This document shows, in pieces, positions 10,004-46,632 of a stretch of 64,000 bases of DNA. A model generated the notes under the pieces. That model was not told the origin of the DNA. It worked only from the letters and a program-made list of their open reading frames with translations, and did no database searches. Numbering within the stretch: position 1 is the stretch's first letter; each line of letters begins with the position of its first letter. The position numbers and the translations under genes were made by a program. The DNA is from an uncultured archaeon. GTDB lineage: Archaea > Asgardarchaeota > Lokiarchaeia > Sigyniarchaeales > SOKP01. The stretch lies in the NCBI GenBank assembly GCA_964486045.1, contig CAZALK010000018.1, forward strand, positions 149 to 64,148, given 5' to 3'.

Positions 10004-10132
10004 TCTAAACTATCAAATCCTTTTTATGATTTAGCTTAATCTGATTTATATGCTCTATTTATTTCTTTTACTTTAACTTTTATTAGGATATAAAATTTAT
10101 TTTAACTGAAATATGTATCTAAGTTTTTATTA

Positions 10133-42905: not shown

Positions 42906-43646
42906 TTAATGATCATGAAGTACATTATCTATTGATAAAACAAACCCTAGCAGAATACGCCTGTCAGTTTCATTATCAAGTATCCTCAAAGCATAAGTAT
43001 CTTTAAAGTCTAATAACCCTCCAAGAAAAACATCTCTCCATCTGTCTGCTTTTTCGATTTCAGCAACAATTTTTCCAGACATATCAGTTACCTTATAGGA
43101 CCACCCCATAAATTTACCTTGAGCCTCGAAGAAACGTTCTCCACTTGCTGACTCTAAAAAAAACTTTGGTCGGAAAACAGAGAGTATTTTTTTTTTAATT
43201 CTAGCAATCATATTTCCTTGAGGATCTTTTAGATCTTGGGCTCCACGGGCAGATACGATTTTTGAGTGGATAGTAGCCGATAATGTGCCATCAATTTCGA
43301 GTAATTCAACTCGACGACGAATACTTAAAATGACTCTTTTCATCTTTCCAATTATTTGATTATTTTCATCAAGAATCTCGCCGGAACCCCAGTCCCAATA
43401 TTTTAAAGGAATAAGATCAACGATATCTTATTTTTCCTTAAGGATAAAGTAGTTACGGCTGATGTCGAATAACCCACCAGGGCGATCATAGGATTGAAAG
43501 CCCATCGTCATTGGTGAAATGCTTGTTGTTGGGTAAACGACCTCTTCACTCTGTTTCACACTGGAAGGGATCGATGCACCACACTTCTCACAAAATCTCT
43601 GCTGTTCTGTCAAAATTTCAACTCCACAATTAGGACAATATTTCAT
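42906..43646 (-). CDS. Zinc-ribbon plus LURP-one/scramblase (Tubby C-like) protein, 236 aa after removal of a 30-nt intron
   Basis: ORFs 43428..43646 and 42906..43343 are in one frame, separated by a single TAA inside the insert. The spliced form reads YFILKEKYWDWGSGEILDEN; downstream motifs include VAEIEK...DTYAL.I...D. Confidence 0.8.
43404..43433 (-). other. Candidate BHB (tRNA-endonuclease-type) intron in mRNA
   Basis: UU-AAGG-AA^A-AAUAAGAU-(AUCGUUG)-AUCUUAUU-CCUU-UA^A-AA: a 4-bp central helix, two 3-nt bulges and an 8-bp inner helix. Confidence 0.75.
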
Positions 43647-43845: not shown

Positions 43846-44610
43846 ATGCCAAACACTAGTATTCCCAAAATCCTAAAGTTAAAAGATTATATAACCCTTA
43901 TTGGGACTACTCTAGGGATTATTGCTTTAGTCTGTGCTACATTTGGAACTCGAGAATTTATTTCATTGGGATTTTTTTTAATTTCCATTACTTTAGGAAC
44001 AGATTTGATAGACGGTTATATTGCCCGTAAAACAAAAACCGTCAATAATATGGGGAAGGAATTGGATTCTTTAAGCGATTCATTAACATTTGGCATTACT
44101 CCTGCAATCTTGGCATTTCAAGCATTTAAAACTGAAACTATTTTTGACATAATAATTATAATAAGCTCTATTTGTTTTGCTTTTGGTGCTATTCTCAGAT
44201 TAGCGCGATTTAATATAACTGAAGATTCTGGATATACAGGACTTCCTACACCTATTAGTGCTCTAATGTTAATTACTTATTTTTATACCAACTATTTTTA
44301 CGCATATGGGATGGGAGGTAATACTTATCCAATACCATTGTTAGCATCTTATTTAATTCCTGTTTTTATGATTTTAATCGCTTGGTTTAATATAACAACA
44401 TTTATCAGATTTAGTGAGAAGGATAAAATAGTTTATATCGTTTTCATTGCTATCGCTCCATTATGTCCAATTTTTGGTATAATCGGTATATTAAACCCTA
44501 ATTTCTTCCTTTCTATGGCAATATCAATATTTTTTTTAACCTCTTTCATACTCGCATTGATACTTATTGTTAGAGGTTTCTTCCTTTATTTTAATAGGAA
44601 AAAGAATTGA
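43846..44610 (+). CDS. CDP-alcohol phosphatidyltransferase (archaetidylserine synthase/PssA-like)
   Basis: DLIDGYIAR...GKELDSLSD..TFG..P, LRLARFN and GLPTP motifs. Confidence 0.85.
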   Translation: MPNTSIPKILKLKDYITLIGTTLGIIALVCATFGTREFISLGFFLISITLGTDLIDGYIARKTKTVNNMGKELDSLSDSLTFGITPAILAFQAFKTETIFDIIIIISSICFAFGAILRLARFNITEDSGYTGLPTPISALMLITYFYTNYFYAYGMGGNTYPIPLLASYLIPVFMILIAWFNITTFIRFSEKDKIVYIVFIAIAPLCPIFGIIGILNPNFFLSMAISIFFLTSFILALILIVRGFFLYFNRKKN

Positions 44611-44643: not shown

Positions 44644-46632
44644 CTAAGCGAATTTATTCTTCCAGCTCTCAATATTCTCTATGATCTGTTTTGAATCAAT
44701 TTCTTCAAGTAAAAGGTCATTAAATCTATATTGATTTATTAAACTCCTTAATTTGTGTAAAGTTACGGAAAAACCTCTTTTTTCAAGAACAAGATCCGCA
44801 ATCTTTTGCAATTCGGCACTAAATTCCTCCCCTTTTAAGTTCGGTAATTTTTGAACTAAATTATCAAAGGCAGAATTGATCAGTTTGCCTGTTTCATCTC
44901 CTCTCTTTACAGTTTTTTTAGGTTTTGAAGCAGGTTTAGAAGCAAACTTTATTTTTTCTTGTAATTTTTTCTTAATCTCAGTAATTTGATCTTTTTCTCT
45001 TTGCCTCATAGGCGTTGCTTGAGAAATCTTTTCAGAAGATGGTATTTCTGCTTGCTTGACAATTCTAGATTTTTGCGGAGCAGTAGACTTTGGATCTTTA
45101 GGGCTTGTAATGGGCTTTATTTTCTTAAAAATCTCATTTTTGGCTTCCTTGATTGATTTTGATAGAATTTTTGAAGATTTAGCCTTTTGGGAGGCATAGA
45201 ATGTATCTGAATAAGCCTCTTCCCATATATTATTTATTAATGGATCAATTACCTCAATTAATGGTTTAAAATTAACTCCTACTCCGATAAAGTCATTTAA
45301 CTGGTTTTTTATGTCTCTTTGGATTATACCAATAGTTATGAGATTATTATCCTCCTTAATCGCGATTAAATTCTCGTTTTCTAGGGTTTTATATTCAATA
45401 TTGGTTAAAGAACTGAACTTTTTAACAATGCTATTGGTATGTGGTTCTGAAGCGATAATTTTGATTTTTAAACTTCTAGGAATTTTTTCAAACTGTTCAA
45501 TTGCTAAATGATTTTCTATGTGAGGTACTACAATTATTAGATCATCTTTCGATGTAGCAATAGATTTTTGAATTTCTTCATTAATTTTTATAAGGCTACT
45601 AACGGTCCAAATATTAACGATTTGTGTTTTATCTGAAGTACTCATTTCTTGATAATACGCTTTCATAAGATTTTCAACAGGCTTATTCAACTGTGAGACT
45701 TCCTCAATAGAGCTTTGAATTACAGCATTTATATTCTCTAAAACCTTATTTTCTAGGCTTCCCATCTCTTTAGATAATGAGTTGTTATTTTTTTTAAGCA
45801 TCTCATTAATTATATTCATTTTATTTTCAAAATTACTTAACATGTTAAGTAAAATCATTTTAAAGTCATCTCGATGTTGGAATGTAGTGTTTATTAAGTT
45901 TACTATCGGTTTCGTAGCTTTTTCGAACTCATGTTCAATTGTTTCGTAGAGTTTACTAGAAAACTGTTTTATTAATATCTCTGATTTCTCTTTAAAGATT
46001 TTATCGACGATAGATAAAATTTCTTCCTTATGTTTTTTGAATTCTAATGAATTAATTTGATTAATTATTTCTGACTTAATACTTAAAATCTGCTTCATGA
46101 AATGAGTAAATTGTGTTTGTGTCTGTGTTTTTATGAGTTGGCTTAATTCAAATATTTCTGTGTTAATGCTCTTTAATTCTTCCATTCCTTCGACAATGTC
46201 TTCTATTTCTTGTTTTTGTATAATAATATCTTCTTCGATATCGTTCCTCATGTCATGAAATTTCTCAAGAATGGTATCCAATTGAATTCCTTCATTCTGT
46301 TGGAAAATTTGATTTATAGTGTTAACTATTAGATCTTTAATCGAATCTTTTATTCCATTTAGGTTCGCATTAATATTTTCATAATAATTTACTATTGGAA
46401 GAATAGGTGGAATTGCATAATAATGTAATAAAATTTCTTTATTTTTTGGAATTAATTGAATCAACAAACCTCCGTTCATTAATTGACTTAAATTTTCATC
46501 AAATTCATCTAAAGACGTTTTTGAAACAATTGAATACAATTCATGATAAGTAAGTGGGGATTTCCCTATTATTTTTAAATAAATCTCAATAGCGTTATTC
46601 GAAAGTTGTAATTTTTTTAAAAAATCTTCCAT
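44644..46632 (-). CDS. TrmB-like HTH, long coiled coil and PLD-like domain protein
   Basis: N-terminal LSNNAIEIY..L...GLL...Y.AIPP (TrmB HTH pattern), long helical region, and a domain similar to the C-terminus of 6877..7689. Confidence 0.55.
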   Translation of the reverse strand: MEDFLKKLQLSNNAIEIYLKIIGKSPLTYHELYSIVSKTSLDEFDENLSQLMNGGLLIQLIPKNKEILLHYYAIPPILPIVNYYENINANLNGIKDSIKDLIVNTINQIFQQNEGIQLDTILEKFHDMRNDIEEDIIIQKQEIEDIVEGMEELKSINTEIFELSQLIKTQTQTQFTHFMKQILSIKSEIINQINSLEFKKHKEEILSIVDKIFKEKSEILIKQFSSKLYETIEHEFEKATKPIVNLINTTFQHRDDFKMILLNMLSNFENKMNIINEMLKKNNNSLSKEMGSLENKVLENINAVIQSSIEEVSQLNKPVENLMKAYYQEMSTSDKTQIVNIWTVSSLIKINEEIQKSIATSKDDLIIVVPHIENHLAIEQFEKIPRSLKIKIIASEPHTNSIVKKFSSLTNIEYKTLENENLIAIKEDNNLITIGIIQRDIKNQLNDFIGVGVNFKPLIEVIDPLINNIWEEAYSDTFYASQKAKSSKILSKSIKEAKNEIFKKIKPITSPKDPKSTAPQKSRIVKQAEIPSSEKISQATPMRQREKDQITEIKKKLQEKIKFASKPASKPKKTVKRGDETGKLINSAFDNLVQKLPNLKGEEFSAELQKIADLVLEKRGFSVTLHKLRSLINQYRFNDLLLEEIDSKQIIENIESWKNKFA

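What the first reader, a model, noticed from the sequence alone, without database searches (positions are those of the whole stretch)
43401..43441. Bulge-helix-bulge intron inside a protein-coding gene: candidate endonuclease-type mRNA splicing in an Asgard archaeon
Seen: the two halves of the zinc-ribbon/LURP-one gene are in one frame and read ILKEK*DIVDLIPLKYWDWG. The mRNA folds as outer UU/AA, central helix AAGG/CCUU (4 bp), bulges AAA and UAA (3 nt each), inner helix AAUAAGAU/AUCUUAUU (8 bp) and a 7-nt loop. Cutting after the second base of each bulge removes exactly 30 nt (43433-43404), including the only stop, giving CUU AAG GAA|AAA UAU UGG (LKEKYW) and a 236-aa ORF. Known: this geometry is the substrate of archaeal tRNA-splicing endonuclease EndA, with ligation by RtcB; the mRNA example I know is crenarchaeal cbf5. 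Inference: the gene depends on splicing, and such micro-introns could be systematically misannotated as split genes in Asgard genomes. Unspliced mRNA would give a 72-aa zinc-ribbon peptide, so splicing could act as a switch. Caveats: the outer helix is only 2 bp, and a 6-nt direct repeat (AAAATA) at the junctions also fits a fold-back duplication or insertion footprint.
Basis: partly seen in the sequence, partly recalled or inferred. Interest (0 to 1): 0.95.

Follow-up and report, generated by a model that had tools for sequence, protein, structure and literature searches.

The report
tRNA-type mini-intron splitting an Asgard gene
A 30-base insert carrying a stop codon in a zinc-ribbon/LURP-one gene of an Asgard (Promethearchaeota) archaeon has the RNA shape that the tRNA-splicing enzyme cuts, and comparison with about 50 related genomes indicates that it is a real, spliced mRNA intron, one of at least six such introns in this genome.

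Summary
The minus-strand gene 42906-43646 is interrupted by 30 nt (43404-43433) holding its only internal stop, and the RNA around it forms a bulge-helix-bulge (BHB).

No RNA data could be found, so splicing rests on comparison:
- In the same genus, 31 of 49 orthologs are uninterrupted and read LKEKYWDWGSG.
- 18 carry a BHB insert of 27-30 nt, either at this site (8) or 9 nt downstream (10).
- Cutting after the second nucleotide of each bulge restores that peptide in all 18, including the frame-shifting 28- and 29-nt inserts.
- The stems covary.
- The downstream exon has Ka/Ks of 0.004-0.08.
- The genome encodes a two-subunit EndA and RtcB.

Five more genes of this genome, including the RNA polymerase A' gene, carry similar 27-32 nt BHB inserts that orthologs lack.

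Intron presence is scattered on the gene tree, which points to rapid gain, loss or exchange.

A motif-only genome scan showed no clear excess over a decoy motif.

In print I found coding-sequence BHB introns only for crenarchaeal cbf5. This scan's earlier notes describe similar cases on other DNA.

The parts
43434..43646 (-). Exon 1: start codon at 43644-43646, zinc ribbon (CxxC...CxxC), linker and the first strand of the LOR domain, ending ...ILKE
   Evidence: Pfam zinc-ribbon hits at residues 1-25
43404..43433 (-). 30-nt BHB intron holding the only internal stop (TAA 43428-43430)
   Evidence: Absent from 31 of 49 genus orthologs
42906..43403 (-). Exon 2: the rest of the LURP-one-related (PF04525) domain, stop codon at 42906-42908
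   Evidence: LOR, E = 3.7e-08, residues 90-237 of the read-through; Ka/Ks 0.004-0.08
43436..43439 (-). Central helix, 5' strand (exon, AAGG). Pairs with 43406-43409
   Evidence: The G/A at column 18 covaries with the intron C/U (AU 3, GC 3, GU 2)
43406..43409 (-). Central helix, 3' strand (intron, CCUU)
43433..43435 (-). 5' bulge AAA; predicted cut between 43434 and 43433
   Evidence: Cleavage rule from PMC2738675
43403..43405 (-). 3' bulge UAA; predicted cut between 43404 and 43403
43410..43432 (-). Intron hairpin h': 8-bp helix (43425-43432 with 43410-43417) and 7-nt loop (43418-43424)
   Evidence: Six of its 8 pairs show double changes among site-A introns
43401..43402 (-). Outer helix h, 3' strand (AA), pairing with UU at 43440-43441. 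Only 2 bp, so this is a relaxed BHB
   Evidence: 100% of cells paired; UA or UG

Best explanation
The 30 nt at 43404-43433 are an archaeal bulge-helix-bulge intron inside the coding sequence of a zinc-ribbon/LURP-one-related gene.

Proposed mechanism:
1. The gene is transcribed as one pre-mRNA.
2. The exon sequence AAGG pairs with the intron's CCUU. An 8-bp intron hairpin stacks on this helix, which presents two 3-nt bulges on opposite strands.
3. The splicing endonuclease (one catalytic and one structural EndA paralog, a likely alpha2-beta2 enzyme) cuts after the second nucleotide of each bulge.
4. RtcB joins the exons. The intron probably circularises.
5. The spliced mRNA encodes a 236-aa protein reading ...ILKEKYWDWGSG....

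Shown here: the structure, its covariation, exact restoration of the conserved peptide in 18 of 18 intron-bearing orthologs, selection on the downstream exon, and the presence of the enzymes.

Inferred: cleavage and ligation in the cell.

The intron is dispensable, since sister species lack it. It behaves like a fast-turnover or selfish element rather than a regulator.
For: 1. Orthologs. In genus g1, 31 of 49 orthologs are uninterrupted and read ILKEKYWDWGSG. 18 carry an insert with stops, at site A (LKE|KYW; 30, 30, 27, 30, 30, 29, 29 and 28 nt) or at site B, 9 nt downstream (YWD|WGSG; all 30 nt). The fixed rule of cutting after nucleotide 2 of each bulge gives LKEKYWDWGSG in all 18.
2. Frame-shifting inserts. 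The 28- and 29-nt inserts shift the frame, so neither read-through nor tolerance of the insert as a protein loop can rescue those genes.
3. Exact junction at site B. Site B has no junction repeat, so the junction is fixed to the base, and it is the one the BHB rule predicts.
4. Covariation.
- Site B: 98.6% of cells paired, 5 pairs and 14 cells changed on both sides, 0 of 500 shuffles as high; sliding the partner drops pairing to 57-69%.
- Site A: 89% paired, 7 pairs and 15 cells changed on both sides, 0 of 500. This includes a synonymous exon site covarying with the intron.
5. Selection.
- Ka/Ks of the exon after the intron is 0.004-0.08. For pairs in which both genes carry the intron it is 0.024-0.059, with Ks of 0.8-1.9.
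- The 19 codons between the intron and the first downstream ATG keep their amino acids through 3-4 synonymous codons.
- Site-B introns are 69% identical on average, against 43% at synonymous third positions.
6. Enzymes. Two PF01974 EndA paralogs of about 200 aa are present. One keeps Tyr/His/Lys and the other lacks the His. RtcB is present. Asgard archaea are reported to have the broad-specificity (alpha-beta)2 EndA (PMC5829648).
7. Same genome. Five more genes carry BHB inserts of 27-32 nt that orthologs lack, with junctions restored by the same rule:
- SelD-like AIRS gene
- AAA ATPase, 32 nt
- PurM-like gene
- RNA polymerase A'
- BcrAD/HgdC-like ATPase
An interrupted single-copy RNA polymerase A' gene implies that splicing works in these cells.
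8. The insert is real DNA.
Against: - There is no RNA evidence. No spliced junction or circular intron has been seen.
- The outer helix is only 2 bp at site A and at most 1 bp at site B, so the motif is relaxed (HBh'-like) rather than canonical.
- The fold is not more stable than shuffled sequence (z = -0.55).
- Motif-only genome scans give about as many ORF-repairing hits for a mirrored decoy motif: 289 against 324, 33 against 25, and 44 against 34.
- At site A a 5-6-nt direct repeat leaves the exact junction ambiguous and also fits an insertion footprint.
Confidence: 0.85

Rival explanations
1. The insert is an inert hairpin-forming insertion (a fold-back duplication or a tiny mobile element), and the gene is a pseudogene in the genomes that carry it.
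For: An AAAAUA direct repeat lies at the site-A junctions. The insert has a patchy, tip-wise distribution on the gene tree. No RNA data exist.
Against: - All 18 insert-bearing genes have no other lesion.
- Ka/Ks is 0.02-0.06 between insert-bearing pairs at Ks of about 1 or more.
- The stems covary.
- The inserts are better conserved than synonymous sites.
- Site B has no flanking repeat.
- The insert has no other copy in the genome.
- The same kind of insert sits in the RNA polymerase A' gene.
Confidence: 0.04
2. The ribosome handles the insert: either stop-codon read-through, or a gene-60-like translational hop from the AAA before the stop to the AAA 30 nt downstream.
For: In this genome the take-off codon AAA is followed at once by UAA and a hairpin, and a matching AAA lies just before UAU UGG. 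This resembles the T4 gene 60 layout (from memory).
Against: - Site-B inserts have no matching take-off and landing codons that would give YWDWGSG.
- Several site-A inserts have no stop right after the take-off codon.
- Read-through fails for the 28- and 29-nt inserts, and for the 32-nt insert in the AAA ATPase gene.
- It does not explain why the 4-bp helix and 3-nt bulge geometry covaries.
Confidence: 0.03
3. The gene is truly split. A 72-aa zinc-ribbon peptide and a separate LOR-domain protein, started at the internal ATG (ORF 42906-43343), are made and perhaps assemble.
For: Both ORFs exist. Methionine codon 28 of the junction alignment is invariant.
Against: - The 19 codons between the insert and that ATG would be untranslated, yet they are under strong amino-acid constraint in all 18 insert-bearing genes.
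- The LOR Pfam match begins upstream of the ATG, at residue 90 of the read-through, where Met is residue 102.
- There is no reason for BHB geometry to be conserved.
Confidence: 0.04
4. The insert is removed from the RNA, but by a route other than EndA plus RtcB (another nuclease, or self-cleavage).
For: The weak outer helix departs from the canonical hBHBh' motif. No enzymology has been done.
Against: - The junctions fall exactly at bulge nucleotide 2|3 in every case, which is the EndA rule (PMC2738675).
- 30 nt is too small for group I or group II ribozymes.
- The host has the broad-specificity type of EndA (PMC5829648).
Confidence: 0.03

Closest known systems
BHB intron of the cbf5 (pseudouridine synthase) pre-mRNA in Crenarchaeota (Watanabe 2002; Yoshinari 2006; Yokobori 2009, PMC2738675)
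   Same: - A small intron inside a coding sequence, with a relaxed BHB.
- Cut between the second and third bulge nucleotides by a hetero-oligomeric EndA.
- Lineage-specific presence and absence.
- Annotated in genomes as a split or frame-shifted gene.
   Different: - Different gene family (zinc ribbon/LOR) and different phylum (Asgard/Promethearchaeota).
- Two alternative insertion sites 9 nt apart.
- Presence is scattered among sister species rather than explained by a few losses.
- At least five more genes of the same genome carry such introns.
- cbf5 splicing has cDNA and in vitro proof. This case has none.
BHB intron in the 5' UTR of Haloferax volcanii HVO_1309 (PMC7714728)
   Same: An mRNA substrate of the tRNA-splicing endonuclease, outside tRNA and rRNA.
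   Different: It lies in the untranslated leader, is 46 nt long, and has been shown by circRNA-seq and in vitro cleavage. It does not interrupt a reading frame.
BHB introns of archaeal tRNA genes, including the heavily interrupted tRNA genes of Asgard archaea (bioRxiv 10.64898/2026.10.13.758758) and transposing tRNA introns of Thermoproteales (from memory: Fujishima 2010)
   Same: Same motif, same enzymes, and repeated gains at many positions. ARAGORN finds only 31 tRNA genes in this genome and flags 20 of them as intron-bearing, which fits a heavy load on EndA.
   Different: The host molecule here is an mRNA, so excision must restore a reading frame, and it competes with translation.
Unconventional cytoplasmic splicing of HAC1/XBP1 mRNA in eukaryotes (IRE1 cleavage, then ligation by tRNA ligase or RtcB; from memory)
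   Same: It works in a similar way: a small intron is cut out of an mRNA by an endonuclease at structured sites, the exons are rejoined by the tRNA-ligation machinery, and the reading frame downstream changes.
   Different: The nuclease (IRE1) and the recognition motif (twin stem-loops) differ, and that splicing is regulated by stress. No regulation is shown here.

Membership tests
Archaeal BHB (EndA-type) intron | A 4-bp central helix flanked by two 3-nt bulges on opposite strands | tested here: met
   Direct reading. All 18 intron-bearing orthologs have 4 of 4 central pairs and 3-nt bulges. Central helices are 100% paired in both alignments.
Archaeal BHB (EndA-type) intron | Flanking helices h (exon-exon) and h' (intron) of the canonical hBHBh' motif | tested here: inconclusive
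   h' is strong (8-10 bp) and covaries. h is only 2 bp at site A and at most 1 bp at site B. This matches the relaxed HBh' class, which only (alpha-beta)2 and epsilon2 enzymes are reported to cut (PMC5829648).
Archaeal BHB (EndA-type) intron | Cutting after the second nucleotide of each bulge yields the functional product | tested here: met
   The rule gives LKEKYWDWGSG in 18 of 18 orthologs with inserts of 27, 28, 29 and 30 nt. The same rule restores five other genes.
Archaeal BHB (EndA-type) intron | The host encodes the splicing endonuclease and the RtcB ligase | tested here: met
   Two PF01974 ORFs (102 and 67 bits) and one RtcB (557 bits). One EndA paralog has Y/H/K and the other lacks the His.
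Archaeal BHB (EndA-type) intron | Excision seen in RNA (spliced junction, circular intron) or in vitro | not testable with these tools
   No RNA run was listed for this gene.
cbf5 pre-mRNA intron lineage | Located in cbf5, at the codon of the catalytic aspartate | tested here: not met
   The gene is a zinc-ribbon + LOR (PF04525) protein.
Transposon or MITE insertion with target-site duplication | Flanking direct repeats, and further copies in the genome | tested here: not met
   Site A has a 5-6-nt repeat, but site B, RNA polymerase A' and the PurM-like gene have none. The inserts have no other copy in the genome.
Gene-60-type translational bypass | Matching take-off and landing codons around a coding gap | tested here: not met
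   Met by chance-like AAA...AAA in this genome only. Site-B inserts offer no such pair that gives YWDWGSG.

The most novel reading that the evidence does not exclude
This Promethearchaeota family carries a population of uniform, roughly 30-nt BHB micro-introns in many protein-coding genes, essential ones such as RNA polymerase A' included. These introns are gained, lost or exchanged between species on the time scale of speciation (17 state changes on a 48-gene tree, and introns better conserved than synonymous sites). On this reading, the closest archaeal relatives of eukaryotes routinely splice mRNAs with the tRNA-splicing machinery and tolerate a turnover of mobile introns in coding genes.
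Probability: 0.45. Interest if true: 0.92.

Novelty: new variant of a known kind. Interest (0 to 1): 0.8.

Why it matters
In the papers I could search, endonuclease-type splicing of an archaeal coding sequence is documented only for cbf5 in Crenarchaeota (PMC2738675). A 2020 paper still calls cbf5 the one example besides its own Haloferax 5' UTR intron (PMC7714728).

Here an Asgard archaeon has at least six protein genes that can be read only after such splicing, among them the RNA polymerase A' gene. The introns come and go between sister species.

If RNA data confirm this, three things follow:
- Gene callers systematically split or truncate such genes in Asgard genomes.
- mRNA splicing, and the problem of keeping ribosomes off unspliced messages, already exists in the prokaryotic relatives of eukaryotes.
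- The polymorphic sites offer a natural system for studying how BHB introns are gained and lost.

Tried and rejected
- RNA evidence. No RNA holder was listed for the gene in either search, so expression and splicing could not be examined.
- Read laying on X1. Nothing was laid, because a filter left the contigs out. This is not evidence.
- Thermodynamics. The fold of the 71-nt region is no better than shuffles, so it is not usable as support.
- Genome-wide enrichment of ORF-repairing BHB motifs against a mirrored decoy motif. Four designs were tried: strict or relaxed helices, flanks of 20-70 codons, and with or without a codon-usage score.
  - Counts were 289 against 324 overall, 33 against 25 and 44 against 34 in the 24-35-nt bins, and 6 against 11 at exactly 30 nt.
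  - There was no clear excess. In a genome of 31% G+C the motif carries too little information. The small excess in the 24-35-nt bin is about the size of the six ortholog-verified cases.
- Scan candidates rejected on inspection:
  - C12:83814 and C10:21587 are junctions between two complete genes.
  - At C5:152054 the "intron" is real DEAD-box coding sequence.
  - At C20:10068 the read-through looks like native sequence with an in-frame TGA.
  - C2:44948 is unconvincing.
- Repeat family. A search for other copies of the intron in the genome found none.
- Literature. Searches for Asgard mRNA BHB introns found nothing.

Full report
**What is there.** The gene lies on the minus strand of the window and starts at 43646 (MKYCPNCG..., a GAGGG box upstream). 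It encodes a zinc ribbon, a linker and a LURP-one-related (PF04525) domain. Reading is stopped by TAA at 43428-43430. The same frame continues open to 42906.

- UU/AA outer pairs
- central helix AAGG/CCUU
- 3-nt bulges AAA and UAA on opposite strands
- an 8-bp inner helix with a 7-nt loop

Cutting after the second nucleotide of each bulge removes 43404-43433 (30 nt) and gives a 236-aa ORF.

The minimum-free-energy fold contains the hairpin, the central helix and the 5' bulge. It is no more stable than shuffled sequence (z = -0.55), so the fold alone proves nothing.

The insert is not an assembly artefact. A contig from a second sample (depth 76) is identical across it. A diverged relative in another study (33 changes in 260 nt) keeps all 30 nt with one change, in the loop. 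Intronless relatives are present in that same run.

**The organism.** The genome has 5.18 Mb in 45 contigs and 31% G+C. Its relatives carry the names Promethearchaeota or Promethearchaeia MAG, which places it in the Asgard archaea.

**The comparative test.** I searched the read-through protein in 135 genomes of the family and read the junction in 48 loci.
- In the window's genus, 31 of 49 orthologs are uninterrupted and read ...YYILKEKYWDWGSGDILDE....
- 18 orthologs are interrupted by an insert with stops.
  - Eight are interrupted at the window's site (site A, LKE|KYW), with inserts of 30, 30, 27, 30, 30, 29, 29 and 28 nt.
  - Ten are interrupted 9 nt downstream (site B, YWD|WGSG), all with 30 nt.
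- In the other twelve genera no ortholog is interrupted at either site.
- Every insert forms a 4-bp central helix between exon and intron, two 3-nt bulges and an intron hairpin.
- The single rule "cut after bulge nucleotide 2" returns LKEKYWDWGSG in 18 of 18. This is the rule stated for cbf5 introns (PMC2738675).

Three details matter here.
- The 28- and 29-nt inserts shift the frame, so stop-codon read-through, or tolerance of ten extra residues, cannot rescue those genes.
- Site B has no repeat at its junctions. The only 30-nt deletion that restores GAU|UGG is the one the BHB rule predicts.
- The helices covary.
  - Site B: 98.6% of cells paired, five pairs and 14 cells changed on both sides, none of 500 shuffles as high, and pairing collapses when the partner is slid by one column.
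  - Site A: 89% of cells paired, seven pairs and 15 cells changed on both sides, 0 of 500. This includes a synonymous Lys codon position in the exon (AAA/AAG) that covaries with the intron's U/C.

**The gene is alive where it is interrupted.**
- None of the 18 interrupted genes has another lesion.
- Ka/Ks of the 172 codons after the intron is 0.004-0.08. For pairs in which both genes carry an intron it is 0.024-0.059 at Ks of 0.8-1.9. Intronless pairs give the same range.
- The 19 codons between the intron and the first downstream ATG keep their amino acids through three or four synonymous codons, for example Ser as AGC, AGT, UCC and UCU. This stretch is therefore translated, which argues against two separate polypeptides.
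- Site-B introns are more alike (mean 69%, up to 93%) than synonymous third positions of the exons (43%). The intron is itself constrained, or has moved recently.
- The genome has no close intronless second copy of the gene.

**The machinery.** The genome encodes two EndA paralogs of about 200 aa. One keeps the Tyr, His and Lys of the catalytic triad. The other lacks the His, as structural beta subunits do. RtcB is also present. Asgard archaea are reported to have the (alpha-beta)2 enzyme with the loop that allows relaxed BHB substrates (PMC5829648). That fits the weak outer helix here.

**Not an isolated case.** A motif scan of the whole genome, followed by ortholog checks, found five more genes in which a BHB insert is absent from orthologs and the same rule restores the conserved sequence.

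| Gene | Insert | Junction restored | Where found |
|---|---|---|---|
| SelD-like AIR-synthase-family gene | 30 nt | 123 + 201 = 324 aa, the length of nearly all uninterrupted orthologs | Only G000 among the 48 genus genomes that hold the gene |
| AAA ATPase | 32 nt, right after Walker B | DEIDKAD\|IEFPNDLL | G000 and two other species |
| PurM-like gene | 30 or 29 nt, with an 11-bp outer helix in G000 | FHV\|TRAAL | Confirmed in five genomes |
| RNA polymerase subunit A' | 30 nt | GHFGH\|IELARP | See below |
| BcrAD/HgdC-like ATPase | 27-35 nt, one site | MND\|KCAAGTG | 7 of 49 genus genomes |

For RNA polymerase A', the open frame after exon 1 is 81-113 aa instead of about 975-1000 aa in 15 of 124 genomes, spread over seven genera. 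I verified the sequence in four of them. The compensatory changes include a Gly codon GGA/GGG paired with an intron U/C.

A single-copy RNA polymerase gene that cannot be read without removing the insert is the strongest indirect sign that these cells splice mRNAs. I found the A' case in my own scan before seeing that a first-stage note on the same genome lists it, together with further unverified cases: EF-2, a histone, uL11, adk, fwdA, cdhA and a Rab-like GTPase.

**Dynamics.** On a maximum-likelihood tree of the spliced downstream exon (48 genes), the three states (none, site A, site B) need 17 changes, which is no fewer than shuffled labels need. Starred branches alone force at least 5 changes for site A and at least 7 for site B. 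Several well-supported sister pairs differ in state at Ks of 0.2-0.6.

Site-B introns share a recognisable consensus across distant clades, for example 27 of 30 nt identical between two genes whose exons are saturated at Ks 1.9. So either many precise losses occurred, or intron-bearing alleles are exchanged between lineages. I cannot tell which. The gene tree is not a species tree, and short conversion tracts would not show on it.

The intron is not a repeated element in this genome.

**What does not fit or is missing.**
- No RNA data could be found.
- The outer helix is minimal.
- My motif-only enrichment tests against a mirrored decoy never gave a clear excess. The excess of about 8-10 hits in the 24-35-nt bins is roughly the six verified cases.
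In a 31% G+C genome the motif has too little information, and many real cases (short exons, central helices with 3 of 4 pairs) were outside my filters.
- The idea that splicing acts as a switch producing a 72-aa peptide has no support. The intron is missing in sister species, and its distribution looks like that of a neutral or selfish element.

**Rivals.**
- A pseudogene with an inert insertion is contradicted by selection, by covariation and by 18 otherwise intact genes.
- A gene-60-like ribosomal hop fits the AAA-UAA...AAA layout of this one genome, but not site B or the other genes.
- A truly split gene is contradicted by the constrained codons upstream of the internal ATG.
- Removal by some enzyme other than EndA cannot be excluded, but nothing points to it.

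**Comparison with the known.** The closest published case is the cbf5 pre-mRNA intron of Crenarchaeota. It shares the relaxed BHB, the cleavage rule, the hetero-oligomeric endonuclease, lineage-specific loss and routine mis-annotation.

This case differs in gene, in phylum, in having two alternative sites, in its rapid turnover, and in being one of several such introns per genome. A 2020 study still lists cbf5 as the only other BHB intron in an archaeal mRNA besides its own Haloferax 5' UTR intron (PMC7714728). My searches found no report for Asgard archaea.

Earlier notes of this scan describe similar mRNA introns on other DNA. I used them as leads only.

**Verdict.** I class it as a new variant of a known kind.

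Noticed in passing
L140:1102-1131 (G000 contig C13:44101-44130, + strand): A 30-nt BHB insert with a stop splits the RNA polymerase A' gene at GHFGH|IELARP. The open frame after exon 1 is cut short in 15 of 124 family genomes from seven genera. The sequence was verified in G000, G092 and G017, with compensatory changes.
   Followed up: yes
L147 (G095 contig C27, RNA polymerase A' locus): At the same A' site this genome has a 65-nt insert. The first 30 nt form a BHB like the others. The remaining 35 nt would have to be a second, adjacent intron, and I could not fold them convincingly.
   Followed up: partly
G100:C4:219886-220152, G084:C17:339-606, G099:C314:189-455: Exon 1 of RNA polymerase A' is itself interrupted near residue 41-46 in three genomes (two pieces, or an internal TGA). 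This may be a second intron site in the same gene.
   Followed up: no
L058:1507-1536 (G000 contig C1:759271-759300, + strand): A 30-nt BHB insert in a SelD-like AIR-synthase-family gene (GGHTIYSEWPL|IGGEASGF). It is found only in this genome among the 48 genus genomes that hold the gene, so it looks like a recent gain.
   Followed up: yes
L057:1507-1538 (G000 contig C3), L056:1507-1536 (C5), L141:1510-1536 (C7): Three more ortholog-verified BHB inserts:
- 32 nt after the Walker B motif of an AAA ATPase
- 30 nt in a PurM-like gene, with an 11-bp outer helix
- 27 nt in a BcrAD/HgdC-like ATPase, where other species have 30-35 nt at the same site
   Followed up: yes
L142 (G000 contig C20, about 10030-10070, minus strand): A PurF-like amidophosphoribosyltransferase gene reads ...CPPLVFGCKFLNFS*SRSELDLAGRWAIKDL... 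with an in-frame TGA. The BHB candidate there looks false, and the TGA is unexplained (error, pseudogene or recoding).
   Followed up: no
L044 (G066 contig C95): The LOR ortholog of another genus has an in-frame TAA in the linker just after the zinc ribbon (...DLINIEIQ*KVDS...), not at site A or site B. I did not examine it for a BHB.
   Followed up: no
whole genome G000: ARAGORN finds only 31 tRNA genes in a genome that is 99% complete. It flags 20 as intron-bearing and makes several odd calls (Pyl, Stop). This fits heavily and non-canonically interrupted tRNA genes.
   Followed up: partly
window 43846-44610 (+): The divergent neighbour gene encodes a membrane protein with a DG..AR...G...D...D motif, typical of CDP-alcohol phosphatidyltransferases. 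Window 44644-46632 (-) encodes a 662-aa coiled-coil-like protein. Neither was studied.
   Followed up: no
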